Source: Octopus sinensis
Taxonomy: Eukaryota
Assembly: GCF_006345805.1 (NCBI RefSeq)
Contig: NC_043006.1
Coordinates: forward strand, 68,324,001 to 68,388,000
Reading direction: 5' to 3'
Length of the DNA stretch: 64,000 nt
Shown: positions 16,660 through 64,000 of the stretch, in pieces
Layout of the letters: every line of letters begins with the position of its first letter
Position numbering within the stretch: position 1 is the stretch's first letter
Translations under genes and position numbers: made by a program
The notes under the pieces: generated by a model
Told to the model about the DNA's origin: nothing
The model's database searches: none
Seen by the model: the letters and a program-made list of their open reading frames with translations, nothing else

Positions 16660-17245
16660 CAGAGATGTATGTTCCCTTCTACAGATATGTGTGTGTGTGC
16701 ATGTGTTATCTTTCAACAGATGTGCATATTACCAATCTACAGACGTGTGTGATACCATTCTACAGACGTGTGTGTCTACAGACATGTTACCATTCTACAG
16801 GCATGTGTGATACCATTCTACAGACGTGTGTGTTACCATCCTACAGATGTGTGTGTTACCATCCTACAGATGTGTGTGTTACCATCCTACAGATGTGCGT
16901 GTTACCATTCTACAGACGTGCGTGTTACCATTCTACAGATGTGCGTGATACCATCCTACAAATGTGTGATATCATTCTACAGACATGTGTTACCATCCTA
17001 CAGACAGGTGTGTTACCATTCTGCAGATGTGTGTGCTACCATTCTACAGACGTGCATGATACCACCCTACAGACGTGTGTTATCATTCTACAGACGTGTG
17101 TTACCATTCTATACATGTGTGTTATCATTCTATAGACATGTGTGATATCATCCTACAGATGTGTGATACTATCCTATAGATGTTGTGATACCATCCTACA
17201 GATGTGTGTGATACCATTCTACAGTGTGTGTGTGATACCATTCCA
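16660..17245. repeat. Minisatellite, ~21-23-bp unit (gtgt)gttaccattctacagac, ~25 copies
   Basis: Directly visible tandem units whose (GT) spacer length varies. Confidence 0.95.
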
Positions 17246-21669: not shown

Positions 21670-24067
21670 CTTGTGAGATATTGAGTAGATAGTAAAGTTC
21701 TTATTTATGCTGCAGCCATTGAAATGTTATATGTAATCTTCTCATATATCAGTGTGTGTGTGTATGTGTGTGTCTGCATATGTGTATATATACACATTCA
21801 ACTTAGTGGAAAACAAAGTTGAATGTTGAGATTTATCAAGATCAGTTTTCACATTTGGAGAAATAAACAGAGTGGTGGTGGTGGTGGTGGTTGTCGTCGT
21901 TGTTGTCCTGTAGGTGGTGGTATAGGAGTGAATGGTGGGGTAGGTGCGTGTGGGGGGTGTGTGCAGTTGTGGGGCTGTAGCAGGGGTGCATAGGAGTGGT
22001 GGTGGTGGTGGTGGTGTAGACTTGAGGAACCGAAGGGGTGTGTGTGCGTGTCTGTGGTTGGGGTGGGTAGTAAAACAACTGGCAGCCATTTAATTTGCCA
22101 AAATTTCTATGAAAAGACCAAAATTTCCGCCCCCCCCCCCCGCAAAACAGGAAGAATTTTTCGGTGAACTTATGCGAGGAATGTAAAACATAAGGCAAGA
22201 AATAGGTTCAAGTCCAGTAGGTGGAAGAGGTGGGGAGAGGAAGAATCAATGAAGAACAATTAATTCCTGTGGTTTTAATTCAAGCAGTCTGGCCAAAATG
22301 ATCCAAATTATACAATGACCTTATTTGGGGTATAGCTACTGCCGCTTGTTGATTTTGATAAACATACTGATGATGATGATGATGATACTAACCGAAACAA
22401 GGTCATAACGAGGTCATCTTATTCAAGGAGAAGCTGACTTTATATTAGTTGGTTGGTTCAAATCTTGGGAAAGTACTGTTATTCAATCTAATCCCCACTA
22501 CCAGTACCACCGCTATCACTACCACCACCATCATCCCAACTCCAGCACCACCACCACCACCTGGCATCACCGTTAATAACTTTATTAGTTCTTTACAACT
22601 GTTGTAGGTTGATAGACATATAATTATGTTATTATAATTATTGTGCTATTATAAATACATACATCACTATTGCCAACATCATCATCATCATCACCATTGC
22701 CAATATTGCCAACATCATCATCATCACCATTATCAATATCGTCATCGTAACTAGTGACATCATCATTATCATCATCACCACTATTGCCATCGTCGTCATC
22801 GCCAATGACATTGTCATCGACAGAATACTGTGATAAAAAAACTGTAAACGTCATCAGATCAAATACGAAAGGTTAACACATGCTTCAATCTTCTTAGCTA
22901 AGGTCATGCTACAGCACCGCTTTCATGTGTGTCGACTCATTTACAATATTCCATTGGTGGAAAGATACAAAGCGGATCATACCATCTGCATAGTTTGCAA
23001 GGGTGGAGACGAAGCTTTCACAGTTGGTTGGCAACAGGAGGCTAAAAGTGTTAAAACTACAATAACCAAGGCATTGTCTAATATTGTTTTAACTAATAAT
23101 ATTTCCATTATCTAACTAGGGTTAATACATAAATATAAAATCTTTTGGCCTACGTGGTTAAGATGAAACACTAATGCTCTTTCTCTCTCTCTCTCTCTCT
23201 CTGGAAAACTGAAGTGAGCTGTTGTTTTGTTACAGCATAATAGCACCATTCCACATGAAACAACACCACCAGAAGTAGTAGTAGTAGTAGTGGTGATGGT
23301 GTGGCGGTTGTTATAGCCATGACATGTTTTGCTAGCAACGACTGTTATTTCTAGCATTGAATGGATAATTATTAACATTCAAACACAGCTTCATATGTTG
23401 AGGGTTGGATTATATATTATATAAAAATGCAACTATGCCCACACACACACATTTGTATGTGTGCTTATTTATGTATGTAGGTGAGCATGTGTGTGCTTTT
23501 GTATGCATAAGTGTTCATGTATGCAGGAGTGTGAGCATGTGCAAGTAATTGCCTGAGTATGCAAGTTTGTCTTGTCTAGGTAAGTATGTCACTGTAAAGC
23601 TTGTGTCCAGATGGCATTTTATATTATAGGGGTGTGTGAGAGAGAGAGAAATAGAGATGCAAGTTTATCTTGTGTAGGCATTAACATTAAACTTGTGTCC
23701 AAATGTATAAGTATGGGCACATGTATGTCACTTTATATTATAGAGGTGTGTTTGTGTGTGTGAGAGAGAGAGAGTTGGAATGTTTAGACTTGAGCACTGA
23801 AATCCTGGTGAAATTTTAGGGGCACTAACTATTGCGACAGATTGCATGCCTTGGGTAGGTTCTAAACATACCAGGTGCTCATCACTCTCTGGGTCTGATA
23901 CAGCTTATTTAAGAGACAGTGGATGAGGAGAAGAAAACATCACGGTTTCATCTTAAACTCAAAGGCAAAACCATTTTTGTATCACTGAAAGCATGTGTGC
24001 ACATGTGTATGTGTGGGTGTTTACACATATCAACATATACACACAAACACACACACACACAGATATA

Positions 24068-24303
24068 CAGGGCGGCCCAAAAGTAGGTTTACAGTTATTC
24101 AACTATCTCTTTCACATTCATATATTAACAGTTTAGATCTTAATTATAAAAGAAATATGAACCCATTATTCTATGCTAATTTAGTTAATTTTGTCAAGCT
24201 CCCTTTTCAGTTTGTAAGATAGAAATTTAAATGTAATAAAATGTTTTAAAAGAAATTTAAAGTGCCTACGTGATAACTGTAAACCTACTTTTGGGCCACT
24301 TTG
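24068..24303. mobile_element. Tc1/mariner-type MITE with ~30-bp TIRs and a TA target duplication
   Basis: TA|cagggcggcccaaaagtaggtttacagttat ... ataactgtaaacctacttttgggccactttg|TA. Confidence 0.9.
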
Positions 24304-24315
24304 TATATACATATA

Positions 24316-25450: not shown

Positions 25451-25509
25451 CATACAAACATATATATCGTCAGTGGATCATATACCTGGAAAAGAAGCAC
25501 AATCTAAAA

Positions 25510-25800
25510 CAGTGATTCCCAAAGTGGGTGGTACTGACCCCCTGGGGCCCCGGTGGAAAGATGTGGGTGGGTGGGAGTGAGGCGTTGAAGGAAAGTGGGG
25601 CAATAATGGAGTGGCAAATGGATGTAAAAATAACAAAATAATTGGTTAATTAGGTTAAGTTTTAATTGTGAAATATAGTTGCTTTTGAATTTACTGCAGA
25701 AAGTGGTCTGTGCTTGTGGTGGTGAATGGGGGGAGGGGGCACTAGGAATGTGGACAAAGTGCCAAGGGGGCAGCAGCACAAAAATGTTTGGGAACCCCTG
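25510..25800. mobile_element. hAT (Charlie-like) MITE
   Basis: TIR cagtgattcccaaa...tttgggaacccctg; the 8-bp flanks aTCTAAAa / cTCTAAAg fit a hAT target-site duplication. Confidence 0.8.
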
Positions 25801-25854
25801 CTCTAAAGCATAGAACAGTAATGTGTTTACAGGAAGTTAATTATATGGCCAGTC

Positions 25855-25919
25855 ACAGAGTGACCAATGGTTTCGCATCCATAAAGCGCTTAGCCTTCTA
25901 GACAACTTGTCAGACTCCA
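25855..25919 (-). ncRNA. Type I hammerhead ribozyme relic (minus strand)
   Basis: GGAGU-CUGACaA-[GUUGUCUAGAAGGC/UAAGC/GCUUUAUGGAUGC]-GAAA-CC AUU GGUC-ACUCU. GAAA, stem III and the GUC site are intact; the core has G8>A. Confidence 0.7.
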
Positions 25920-25932
25920 ATGGCTGCAGACA

Positions 25933-26000
25933 CATAGAGTCTGATGAGTTGTCTATAAGGCTAAGCGCTTTATCTATGTAAAACCATTGTTCACTCTATG
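25933..26000 (+). ncRNA. Type I hammerhead ribozyme relic (plus strand)
   Basis: CAUAGAGU-CUGAUGA-[stem II GUUGUCUAUAAGGC/UAAGC/GCUUUAUCUAUGU]-aAAA-CCAUUGuUC-ACUCUAUG. Stem I is a perfect 8 bp and CUGAUGA is intact, but GAAA has become AAAA and GUC has become UUC. Confidence 0.7.
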
Positions 26001-26299
26001 ACTGGGCATATAATTGACTTCCTGTAAACACACACACAGATATATAAATGCACACTGTTTTTCACTACACTACATACATAACTACAGTGTACAACACTCA
26101 TAACTGTCGCTACCACTCCTGCTCCCAATCATCAATTCCACTAACACCAATAATATATATATATATATACTTTATTATATACACTATACAAAATATTGTG
26201 TTATAAACTATATTATACACTGTGTTACATGCACTATGTATACACTACATTATATGCTATATGTATCTATGTTACACAAGATATGCACACTCTGTTATG

Positions 26300-26837
26300 C
26301 AGTGAAAATAGTGGCTTGGTAAAAGAGAAAAAGCTCAACCACAACCGAGAAGGGAACTTCATGGGAAAAAAGCCCTTCTCTCTATCTGGTGGAATTGCAA
26401 AGGAGTAATTCACTTTGAATTGTTACCACCTAATGCAACAACCAATGTTCAAGTCTACTATCAGCAATTAGAGCATTTGAACCAAGCTTTGAAGAAAAAG
26501 ACTCGCTTTAGTGAATTGAAAAGGAGTGATGTTTCATCAGGACAATGTGCAACCCCACACTGCCATGATCACATCACAGAAGATGGAAGAGCTTGATTGG
26601 GAAAAAATTCCTCATTCACCTTATTCTCCCAACCTTGCTCCTTCAGACTACCATTTGTTTCATAGTTTACAGAATCATTTGGGGGACAAAACTTTCGCAA
26701 GCCAGCAGGAAGTTGAAACCAACATTTCAAAGTTCTTCGTTTTGAAACCAAAAGAGTCTTACATTGATGGGATTAAAAAGCTTGTAAATAGATGGAAGGA
26801 AGTCATAGATAATCAGGGAAAGACCACTGATGATTAA
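26300..26837 (+). mobile_element. Mariner (DD34D) transposase remnant, catalytic C-terminal half, with frameshift and stops
   Basis: WLGKREKAQPQPRRELHGKKALLSIWWNCKGVIHFELLP...YYQQLEHL followed by MFHQDN.QPHTA...IPHSPYSPNLAPSDYHLF...LVNRWKEVIDNQG; this is the mariner YSPDLAP(S)D motif. Confidence 0.92.
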
Positions 26838-26907
26838 ATTTCAATTAAATATAACATTTGATCACTTGTTTTCTTTATTCATAATTTGGTATGTATGTAT
26901 GTATGTA

Positions 26908-62258: not shown

Positions 62259-62306
62259 TAAACAGTTGAAGATATTGAGAATAACAACACTAACAAAAAA
62301 AGATAT

Positions 62307-62312
62307 ACTCAC
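62307..62312 (-). other. 5' splice donor GTGAGT of the large exon (phase 1)
   Basis: Plus-strand actcac at 62307-62312, about 20 nt before the in-frame stop. Confidence 0.75.
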
Positions 62313-64000
62313 AATTATTCACAGTTGCATTAATACTGGTGATATAGGATGGTTTTGTGGTAGGTTTAAAATCCTTTCCTTCTGATCGGGTGATACAGGG
62401 ACCATCTGTGACGTAACACTCTGAAGAGCAATTGTTCATGCTTGGTGTGGAATCATAGCGTGAATATGTATCCAATAACTTCTTCTCTAATTGAACAGGT
62501 GTTGTGTCCTGGTTTGGGGACACGGGAGTACTTAAACTTTTGGTCAGTGCTGCTTTATAGGTGGTTGTTCGTTCAGCAGGTGACTGTACTGGTGTACAGG
62601 TGTAGGTTTTATAATTATCCTGTGATAGCAGTCTCTCTGTGGTGCGGTGTTGTTTATAGTTCAATGGGATTACAGGTGAGGGCAAACTCACTTCACTGGG
62701 TTTGCTTTCAAACTGGGCAGCTCGAGTAGCAACACTTTCAAATTTAGTCCTAGAAGTAATTTTTTCTATTTCAGTTTTATACCTGTTGGAAGGTGAAAGA
62801 GGCACAGAAGATGGAGACTGTGTGTCTCTTTTGGAGGAGACCACACAGATAGTCCGCACTGGTGTAACACCAATGCTGTTCTGGTTATTAAGGGTGTTAG
62901 TGGTGGTAGTAATATTGTTACTACTACTGCTACCAACTGCACAAGGGGTAAACTCCATCTGTGATTTACGCTGAATAAGAACAGGTCTTTGGTTATATGA
63001 AACTGGAAGCACAGGGGCAGTGGAAGGAGCATTAAGGGATGTTTTATTTAAAACTGGTGTCCCACCCATTGTCTTGTAGATGACATGGCGGGACTGTGGG
63101 CTGGGTTCTTCTCGAGAATTGAGGGAGCGATTAAAAACACCATTAGAACTGTTTGAAGACTGATAAATAGAATGAGAGTTAGGTCGGTTCAGAGGAGATA
63201 TTTGTAAAGGAGGATGTACCACTGAAGCCACTGCTGAATGTATTGGGGTACTGTGGGTCGTAGTAGCTTTGCTAGCTTCCACAGTTGAACTGTGGTCATT
63301 AGTAAGAAAATCAGTCTTTGCAGACAGCCCAGGTGAGAAAGTATTTGCAAAGGAGGATAAAGATGAAGTGGTCTGAGAACGAGGTAACATTTTGTTCTCA
63401 GAAGAGATGGTACGTAATGTAGTTGAGAAGGTCTGCCGTGAATCCTTGGCATTGTACAATGGGCTTTGGAAATAGGACTCAGACCGACTGACATTCTCAA
63501 ATGATTCCCGTGATTGCAACACATTTTCACGAGATGTTCGCCTGCGACTGTTGCTGCCACTGCTTGACATATAGATATTATCAATACTATTAGATTTTTG
63601 CTGATCTTTCTTTGGTGGAAAATACAACCCAAAAGAGTATGAATCGATTTTTTGATCGGAAGTTTGAGCAGCACGTTGCTCAAACTCCCGCTTCCGATCC
63701 AAAAATGCAGCTTTATTCATGTTATCAGGTACAAGTGGCTCCCTCTGGAGGCTAATTCCTGATGAGAAAGATGTTGACGTCACTAGTGGAGATGGATTGA
63801 TTTCCTTGATGGTCGTTGTTGAGAAAATAGGATCAGAATGTTGATTCTCTCCAAATGTAAAGGAAACTTTTCTTTCTTTGACACGATCAGGGAGATAAAC
63901 AGTTGTTTCCTTCAGAGCAGACTGTGAATGAACGGCGGGTTTCACACTTATAACAGGAGTTGAGGTGGAGTGACTGCTTATAAACGTATCTGCTGATGTT
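62313..64000 (-). CDS. Large internal coding exon (>560 codons, open past the window edge) encoding a Ser/Thr/Pro-rich, probably disordered protein segment
   Basis: The 551-aa ORF in the track has a non-ATG start (GTG). The frame stays open upstream to position 64000 (TSADTFISSHSTSTPVISVKPAV...). The sequence is non-repetitive and more CpG-rich than its surroundings. It ends at AATAATT|GTGAGT, a canonical donor (intron starts at 62312, phase 1); the ORF tail CEYIFFC* is intron read-through. No domain recognised. Confidence 0.85.

What the first reader, a model, noticed from the sequence alone, without database searches (positions are those of the whole stretch)
25822..26032. Foldback element built from two outward-facing type I hammerhead ribozymes with complementary lesions
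Seen in sequence: each arm of this 210-bp palindrome has full HHR topology. Stem I is CAUAGAGU/ACUCUAUG, followed by CUGANGA, a ~12-bp stem II, GAAA, a short near-palindromic stem III (ACC-AUU-GGU) and a GUC site. The plus copy keeps CUGAUGA but has lost GAAA and GUC. The minus copy keeps GAAA and GUC but reads CUGACAA. Combining them gives a canonical ribozyme (CUGAYGA...GCGAAACCAUUGGUC), and several lesions are CpG-type transitions. Established knowledge: type I HHRs with tiny palindromic stem III occur in Penelope-like element (PLE) terminal repeats and in animal retrozymes, and PLE termini are often inverted. Inference: this is a non-autonomous, bidirectional HHR-bearing element. An intact copy could cleave transcripts from either strand, or switch between a ~95-bp dsRNA hairpin and the ribozyme fold. 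I do not know whether such a family has been described in cephalopods.
Basis: partly seen in the sequence, partly recalled or inferred. Interest (0 to 1): 0.75.

Follow-up and report, generated by a model that had tools for sequence, protein, structure and literature searches.

The report
Decayed head-to-head Penelope retrotransposon ends
The palindrome and its two hammerhead-ribozyme motifs are real, but they are two cut-short tail ends of a common Penelope-like jumping gene (likely Hydra clade, likely in an octopus) joined head to head, a known layout, and both ribozymes carry core mutations predicted to switch them off, so this is an ordinary dead insertion rather than a two-way RNA device.

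Summary
The 96-bp inverted repeat and both type I hammerhead (HHR) motifs are real. The arms belong to a large repeat family (128 exact core-pattern hits versus 0 control). Longer copies lead upstream into a GIY-YIG nuclease, and in sister subfamilies into an RT, with Hydra-clade Penelope-like element (PLE) motifs; a relative, Hydra-1_Obim, with the same HHR stem III is published (PMC8557442). The foldback is likely an insertion by-product, not a family: centres vary from 15 to over 1,000 nt, 26 of 55 unbiased copies have no inverted partner nearby, and a ~55-nt 3' tail sits on exactly one arm in 27 of 29 pairs, never both. The true element starts near 25466 and is split by a 291-bp MITE. The 'complementary lesions' are the two CpG guanines (G8, G12), lost in 39% and 34% of arms; 5 of 44 pairs show this pattern. 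The hairpin is predicted to beat the ribozyme fold by ~70 kcal/mol. The scan noted the same class on other DNA before. Small addition: the one-tail-per-pair rule suggests coupled priming of both target strands.

The parts
25801..25935 (-). Tail-bearing PLE 3' end, inner part: 5'-truncated about 22 nt upstream of the HHR core, HHR, 3' UTR, start of tail
   Evidence: aligns to family profile through the tail once the MITE is left out
25466..25509 (-). Outer part of the ~55-nt 3' tail, ending in a (TA)n/(TACA)n tract; outer boundary approximate
25856..25919 (-). Type I hammerhead, minus copy: core CUGACAA (G8 to A at 25908, CpG), GAAA, stem III and GUC intact; predicted cut after 25862; predicted inactive
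25937..26029 (+). Tail-less PLE 3' end, 5'-truncated inside stem I, ending at the family's internal TGTAAA site before a CA tract
25936..25998 (+). Type I hammerhead, plus copy: CUGAUGA intact, G12 to A at 25980 and C11.1 to U at 25979 (one CpG), two stem II mismatches at 25974-25975, stem III mismatch at 25990; predicted cut after 25992; predicted inactive
25914..25940 (.). 27-nt centre between the two cores: head-to-head junction at about 25935-25937, made of parent upstream sequence in both orientations
25510..25800 (.). 291-bp MITE inserted later into the tail; ~16-bp terminal inverted repeats starting CAG, imperfect 8-bp target duplication (6 of 8); hAT-like (label recalled)
   Evidence: high contig depth over it

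Best explanation
This is one old insertion of a Penelope-like retrotransposon, likely of the Hydra clade, in which two 5'-truncated copies of the element's 3' end lie head to head in a microsatellite, and both hammerheads have since decayed at CpG sites and are predicted to be inactive. Shown: the arms are the 3' end of a family whose longer copies carry a GIY-YIG nuclease; ends come in two classes about 55 nt apart; each pair has one of each; centres vary. Inferred: the element's nuclease nicked both strands of a TA-rich target, reverse transcription started from each strand at one of two start sites (with and without the tail), both cDNAs stopped near the hammerhead and were joined head to head, often at short self-complementary words. 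The hammerhead is passive cargo of the parent's 3' end, where it likely works only as a tandem dimer or with protein help.
For: Family size: 1178 first-look candidates, 40 scored; 128 exact core hits versus 0 reversed control. Nested 5' truncations from a fixed 3' end. Window's own subfamily joined to nuclease-coding DNA in L148/L205 and L195. Sister subfamilies: CxCX5C linker, YIG box, CxxC, CxH; RWK, DKT, FDIVDFYPS, GAYD, YRDD in order ahead of a related HHR and tail in L228. Hydra definition and Hydra-1_Obim with the same stem III and (TA)n target; Penelope-13_HM with an inverted truncated copy and HHR on both strands. Tail on one arm: 30 of 36 pairs, both 0, neither 6 by threshold; 27 of 29, both 0, in a set picked only by a 3' pattern. 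Both arms from the same subfamily in 34 of 44 pairs, permutation mean 12.5, maximum 23 of 5000. Two start sites defining the tail and both-strand nicking/extension shown in vitro for another PLE (PMC11167929). CpG sites 37% mutated versus 8-10% elsewhere; G8 39%, G12 34% of 103 arms.
Against: RT motifs were seen only in sister subfamilies; the window's subfamily was followed only into the nuclease. No RT tree was built and Pfam gave no RT or GIY-YIG hit on five fragments. Copy-level covariation is not above shuffles (score 238 of 500; double-change cells 26 versus 18.9, 21 of 500). A 26-nt centre recurs in 7 of 43 pairs, which a small mobilised dimer subfamily could also give, though that set was partly picked by likeness to the palindrome. 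No cleavage or expression data.
Confidence: 0.92

Rival explanations
1. A non-autonomous foldback/MITE-like or retrozyme-like family that moves as a palindromic unit with an active HHR on each strand.
For: Many copies are palindromes of similar size; 7 of 43 share a 26-nt centre; 12 of 44 pairs keep G8 and G12 on both arms.
Against: Ends are never symmetric (0 of 36 and 0 of 29 with two tails); centres 15-1598 nt; pairs arise in all six subfamily clusters; 26 of 55 copies have no inverted partner within 400 nt; forcing the HHR costs about 70-95 kcal/mol in the window and two other pairs. Retrozymes are tandem, not inverted (PMC7229834 passages).
Confidence: 0.04
2. Same PLE origin, but the inverted copy arises by self-priming (snap-back) of one strand, as proposed for rotifer Penelopes, rather than by two priming events.
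For: Junctions sit at short palindromes and both arms end at the same point in 7 of 27 pairs (permutation mean 1.8; 7 of 10000); arms of one locus share a subfamily; self-priming proposed in PMC3846280 (passages).
Against: In 13 of 27 pairs the tail-less arm reaches further 5' while the other arm holds the tail, so neither arm is a sub-copy of the other. Later deletions at palindrome centres could blur this.
Confidence: 0.3
3. The decayed hairpin has been co-opted by the host as a dsRNA or editing element in a long intron.
For: Stable 96-bp hairpin; a 569-codon open frame on the minus strand 36 kb away may be an exon of a gene that spans the locus (inference).
Against: Arms are 6.5% and 10.8% from the subfamily majority, cluster mean 13.2%, and their mismatches are uncompensated; a MITE interrupts the tail; nothing here shows conservation or function.
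Confidence: 0.04

Closest known systems
Hydra-clade PLEs, nearest Hydra-1_Obim of Octopus bimaculoides (Craig et al. 2021, PMC8557442)
   Same: RT and C-terminal GIY-YIG motifs match by eye (GAYD, YRDDALAISR, FLDVTLD, AGCSCR, FRVPERR, CKLC); 3' HHR with GAAACCA-n-UGGU stem III and a bulged base after G10.1; (TA)n target.
   Different: Different family: longer stem II (9 shared pairs plus upper stem), GUC or GUA cut triplet rather than GUU, different stem I and 3' UTR, a several-hundred-nt Thr/Asn-rich insert before the YIG box. Compared by eye only.
PLE inverted 5'-truncated copy with optional tail (Penelope-13_HM; Adineta Pen2a, PMC3846280; Fig. 2 legend of PMC8557442)
   Same: Head-to-head copies, HHR on both strands, tail on one end only, palindromes at the junction.
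   Different: Here both copies are truncated to ~95-190 nt so no ORF is left; tail ~55 nt versus 30-40 nt.
PLE hammerheads with small palindromic helix III (Cervera and de la Pena 2014, PMC4209133)
   Same: Long helix II with bulge, G10.1-C11.1, palindromic helix III, mostly single truncated copies, and 'dual motifs 100-700 bp apart on opposite strands' already noted.
   Different: Bulge lies after G10.1 rather than between A9 and G10.1; helix III has 3 bp.
Poseidon_Ac (Frangieh et al. 2024, PMC11167929)
   Same: Two RT start sites bracket the tail; both strands nicked and extended; uncleaved RNA is the template, as here (only 2 of 55 copies begin near the cut site).
   Different: Other clade; coupling of the two start sites within one insertion was not stated in the parts read.
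Metazoan non-LTR retrozymes (PMC7229834)
   Same: Type I HHR in a short dispersed repeat.
   Different: Retrozymes are head-to-tail tandems without coding parent; this repeat is the end of an RT/EN element and pairs head to head.

Membership tests
Type I hammerhead ribozyme (family consensus) | CUGANGA, GAAA, NUH core | tested here: met
   All subfamily majorities keep CUGAYGA, GAAA and GUC (GUA in one)
Type I hammerhead ribozyme (family consensus) | Three helices, stem I open | tested here: met
   87.6% of cells paired versus 27-48% for slid controls, 110 copies; structure was drawn from the consensus, so this leans towards it
Type I hammerhead ribozyme (family consensus) | Covariation in stems | tested here: inconclusive
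   Not above shuffles among decayed copies; between subfamily majorities two double changes (C-G/U-A and U-A/C-G in stem II) and G-U/A-U, U-G/C-G swaps
Type I hammerhead ribozyme (the two window copies) | Intact catalytic G8 and G12 | tested here: not met
   G8 to A on minus arm, G12 to A on plus arm; roles of G8 and G12 recalled, G8 loss abolishing cleavage shown for PAc
Type I hammerhead ribozyme | Self-cleavage | not testable with these tools
   No assay; monomer fold of an intact-core copy has stem I probability <=0.05 and stem III 0.0, stem III self-dimer -8.9 kcal/mol
Rfam hammerhead families | Match to an Rfam hammerhead model | tested here: not met
   None among 71 matches at E<=5 in the window; intact copies were not scanned
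Penelope-like element | 5'-truncated copies, inverted truncated copy at 5' end, tail at one end | tested here: met
Hydra clade | C-terminal GIY-YIG nuclease upstream of 3' HHR | tested here: met
   Window's subfamily: L148/L205 (tblastn E 2.5e-17), L195; sister subfamilies
Hydra clade | CxCX5C linker, CxxC and CxH motifs | tested here: met
   L102, L105, L224, L225, L226, L228; linker seen in sister subfamilies only
Hydra clade | RT with RWK and DKT motifs | tested here: met
   L226 and L228; L228 carries a sister-subfamily HHR and tail; not traced for the window's own subfamily
Hydra clade | No CCHH motif in the nuclease | tested here: inconclusive
   Not seen by eye in decayed translations; no alignment to CCHH-bearing PLEs
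Hydra clade | Insertion in (TA)n | tested here: met
   TA/CA tracts beside most ends by inspection; not counted against a control
Hydra clade | RT phylogenetic placement | not tested
   No tree built; published sequences compared by eye only
MITE / foldback DNA transposon | Symmetric terminal inverted repeats and shared internal sequence | tested here: not met
   0 of 36 and 0 of 29 pairs with matching ends; variable centres
Metazoan retrozyme | Head-to-tail tandem repeats of ~150-400 nt | tested here: not met
   Head-to-head or single; a few direct repeats seen (L026, L028, L047) but not arrays

The most novel reading that the evidence does not exclude
PLE inverted ends are made by coupled twin priming: one RNP primes the two nicked target strands at the two different start sites (one with, one without the tail), and the two cDNAs are joined by annealing at self-complementary words. 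The strict one-tail-per-pair rule (27 of 29, none with two) and the 13 pairs in which each arm holds sequence the other lacks would be a genomic footprint of it, making an open step of PLE integration testable from sequence alone.
Probability: 0.45. Interest if true: 0.45.

Novelty: new member of a known kind. Interest (0 to 1): 0.2.

Why it matters
The locus itself is an ordinary dead insertion. Its use is as a caution (paired hammerheads in palindromes of this genome are PLE footprints, and G8/G12 losses are CpG hot spots) and as data on PLE integration: the counted tail asymmetry and junction pattern link the long-known inverted structure to the two start sites found in vitro. The family itself (a Hydra-like PLE with a Thr/Asn-rich nuclease insert, at least six subfamilies) is not Hydra-1_Obim and may be undescribed in print; Repbase and Dfam could not be checked.

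Tried and rejected
Rfam scan: no hammerhead hit. Pfam on five parent fragments: no RT or GIY-YIG hit. Protein search with the nuclease piece among longer proteins: 1 hit, an O. bimaculoides uncharacterised protein. Copy-level covariation: not significant. Own covariance model finds only the two arms in the window, which is circular. Exact search for an undecayed 26-nt junction with both cores: 0 hits, uninformative. In vivo cleavage footprint: 2 of 55 copies start near the cut site, no peak. Sequencing runs: no RNA holder listed; one guessed-RNA run has a 277-nt contig over 25596-25872 only, no evidence either way. Trans-complementation of the two lesions rejected: CUGANGA and GAAA come from the same molecule in the usual dimer (recalled), and transcripts of the two strands would pair with themselves or each other. 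No intact parent ORF seen among the 150 scored nuclease hits' longest open frames (max 344 aa) or ten fetched RT-bearing loci; not a full search. Paper searches; none listed a paper on this family. Earlier-findings search by sequence: nothing.

Full report
Observation. The window holds a 96-nt inverted repeat at 25822-25917 and 25937-26032, 89% complementary, folding at -142 kcal/mol with z -20.8. Read outward, each arm has type I hammerhead topology. The minus arm has CUGACAA, GAAA, ACC-AUU-GGU and C17 at 25862; the plus arm has CUGAUGA, AAAA for GAAA, a stem III mismatch and C17 at 25992. Rfam reports no hammerhead among 71 matches at E<=5. Contigs of two public runs cover the centre without differences.

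A family, not a single locus. The genome is 2.72 Gb; a protein hit to Octopus bimaculoides and close likeness to Hydra-1_Obim suggest an octopus (inference). The 211-nt query gave 1178 candidates, 40 scored. A core pattern gave 128 exact hits against 0 for the reversed control. Copies share the 3' side and differ in 5' extent. Clustering 181 arms gives six to eight subfamilies, all with CUGAYGA, G10.1-C11.1, GAAA, ACC...GGU and a C or A at the cut site. On 110 copies 87.6% of cells pair versus 27-48% for slid controls, but covariation is not above shuffles; between subfamily majorities there are two double changes in stem II. Only 14 of 145 arms not chosen by the core pattern keep all three boxes.

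The parent. Walking upstream from a sister subfamily reached a CxCX5C linker, a Thr/Asn-rich insert, the YIG box, CxxC and CxH. L228 shows RWK, DKT, FDIVDFYPS, GAYD, YRDD, the linker and nuclease motifs in order, then a related hammerhead and tail; 2 of the 10 loci fetched there reach RWK and DKT. For the window's own subfamily, L148/L205 and L195 join the hammerhead to the same nuclease; its RT was not traced. These are the features that define the Hydra clade of PLEs (PMC8557442 section 11). Its supplement lists Hydra-1_Obim from O. bimaculoides with a (TA)n target and a hammerhead with the same stem III, and Penelope-13_HM with an inverted truncated copy and hammerheads on both strands. Ours differs from Hydra-1_Obim in stems I and II, cut triplet, 3' UTR and the insert; the comparison was by eye. 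The nuclease query gave 15562 candidates, 150 scored, most with stops, as expected of an old family.

The palindrome is an insertion by-product. Among 43 head-to-head pairs the centre is 15 to 1598 nt, with a mode of 7 at 26 nt around a CCGCGG-type palindrome just upstream of stem I (this set is partly biased towards the window's size, and three long-centre rows may not be true pairs). A ~55-nt 3' tail lies on one arm in 30 of 36 pairs with centres under 400 nt, on both in none, and below threshold on both in 6, among them the window itself where a MITE splits it. In 55 copies picked only by a 24-nt pattern downstream of the cut site (two are one local duplicate; some overlap with the first set), 29 have an inverted hit within 400 nt: 27 one tail, 0 two tails, 2 neither; the 26 singles split 13 and 13. 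5' ends have a median of -19 from the core and 44 of 55 lie within -60 to +55; 2 of 55 start near the cut. Arms of one locus fall in the same subfamily in 34 of 44 pairs (permutation mean 12.5, maximum 23), and pairs occur in all six clusters. A DNA transposon would need matching ends; PLEs are known for an inverted truncated copy and a tail at one end (PMC8557442 passages; PMC3846280 passages), and opposite-strand hammerhead pairs were noted in 2014 (PMC4209133).

True extent. The minus arm runs from about 25935 to about 25466 and carries the tail; a 291-bp MITE (25510-25800) sits in it. The plus arm aligns from 25937 to about 26029 and lacks the tail.

The lesions. G8 and G12 are both CpG guanines. 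In 103 arms of the window's type they are changed in 39% and 34%; CpG sites average 37%, other core sites 7.9%, other sites 9.6%. The complementary pattern occurs in 5 of 44 pairs, close to the ~11% that the two rates give. The window arms are 6.5% and 10.8% from their subfamily majority. In either transcript the hammerhead follows its own antisense; forcing it raises the energy from -141 to -64 and from -137 to -68 kcal/mol, with similar gaps in two other pairs. An intact-core monomer hardly forms the fold, while stem III self-dimerises at -8.9 kcal/mol, in line with dimer-dependent, weak PLE hammerheads (PMC4209133).

Mechanism. For Poseidon_Ac, the protein nicks and extends both target strands, starts at two sites that bracket the tail, and uses uncleaved RNA; its hammerhead cuts only with protein (PMC11167929). 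Our counts fit two priming events, one at each start site: in 13 of 27 pairs the tail-less arm reaches further 5', so neither arm is a sub-copy of the other, and equal end points are enriched (7 of 27 versus 1.8), as annealing at palindromic words would give. This step is inferred; snap-back self-priming followed by deletion at the centre remains possible.

Sources seen. PMC8557442: outline, passages, sections 11 and 12, supplement searches and parts 2, 52, 53, 58 of 59. PMC4209133 and PMC11167929: parts 1-2 of 4. PMC7229834 and PMC3846280: passages. Others: search listings only. Six searches listed no paper on this family; subscription papers, Repbase and Dfam were not available. Earlier notes of this scan, read after my reading was formed, reach the same class for other loci; they are unchecked and not used as support.

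Verdict. Real feature, known kind, dead copy; interest 0.2.

Noticed in passing
window 25510-25800: 291-bp MITE inserted in the PLE tail at a CTCTAAAG site; by eye L023 and L049 also have an insertion at the same tail site, a possible target hot spot.
   Followed up: partly
window 26283-26840: Frameshifted mariner transposase remnant: PF01359 E 1e-21 and Mos1/SETMAR hits E about 1e-21; left boundary approximate.
   Followed up: yes
window 62293-63999, minus strand: 569-codon open frame, Ser/Thr/Pro-rich, open at the window end, no Pfam hit; likely a large host exon.
   Followed up: partly
window 24063-24308: 246-bp element with 36-bp terminal inverted repeats (92%) between TA/CA tracts, likely a Tc1/mariner-type MITE.
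   Followed up: no
window 16716-17243: 23-bp minisatellite, about 20 copies.
   Followed up: no
L100-L107, L205 (upstream of the YIG box): The parent's nuclease holds a several-hundred-nt Thr/Asn/Ser-rich insert between the CxCX5C linker and the YIG box, far longer than in Hydra-1_Obim; recalls the N-rich inserts of rotifer Penelopes. An O. bimaculoides 'uncharacterised protein' (P0001) is likely such a fragment annotated as a gene.
   Followed up: partly
L118, L122, L127, L135, L228, L230: A more divergent subfamily with GUA at the cut site and another loop III; it includes the most complete decayed copy seen.
   Followed up: partly
L026:1255-1944: Complex locus with several direct and inverted partial hammerhead copies.
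   Followed up: no
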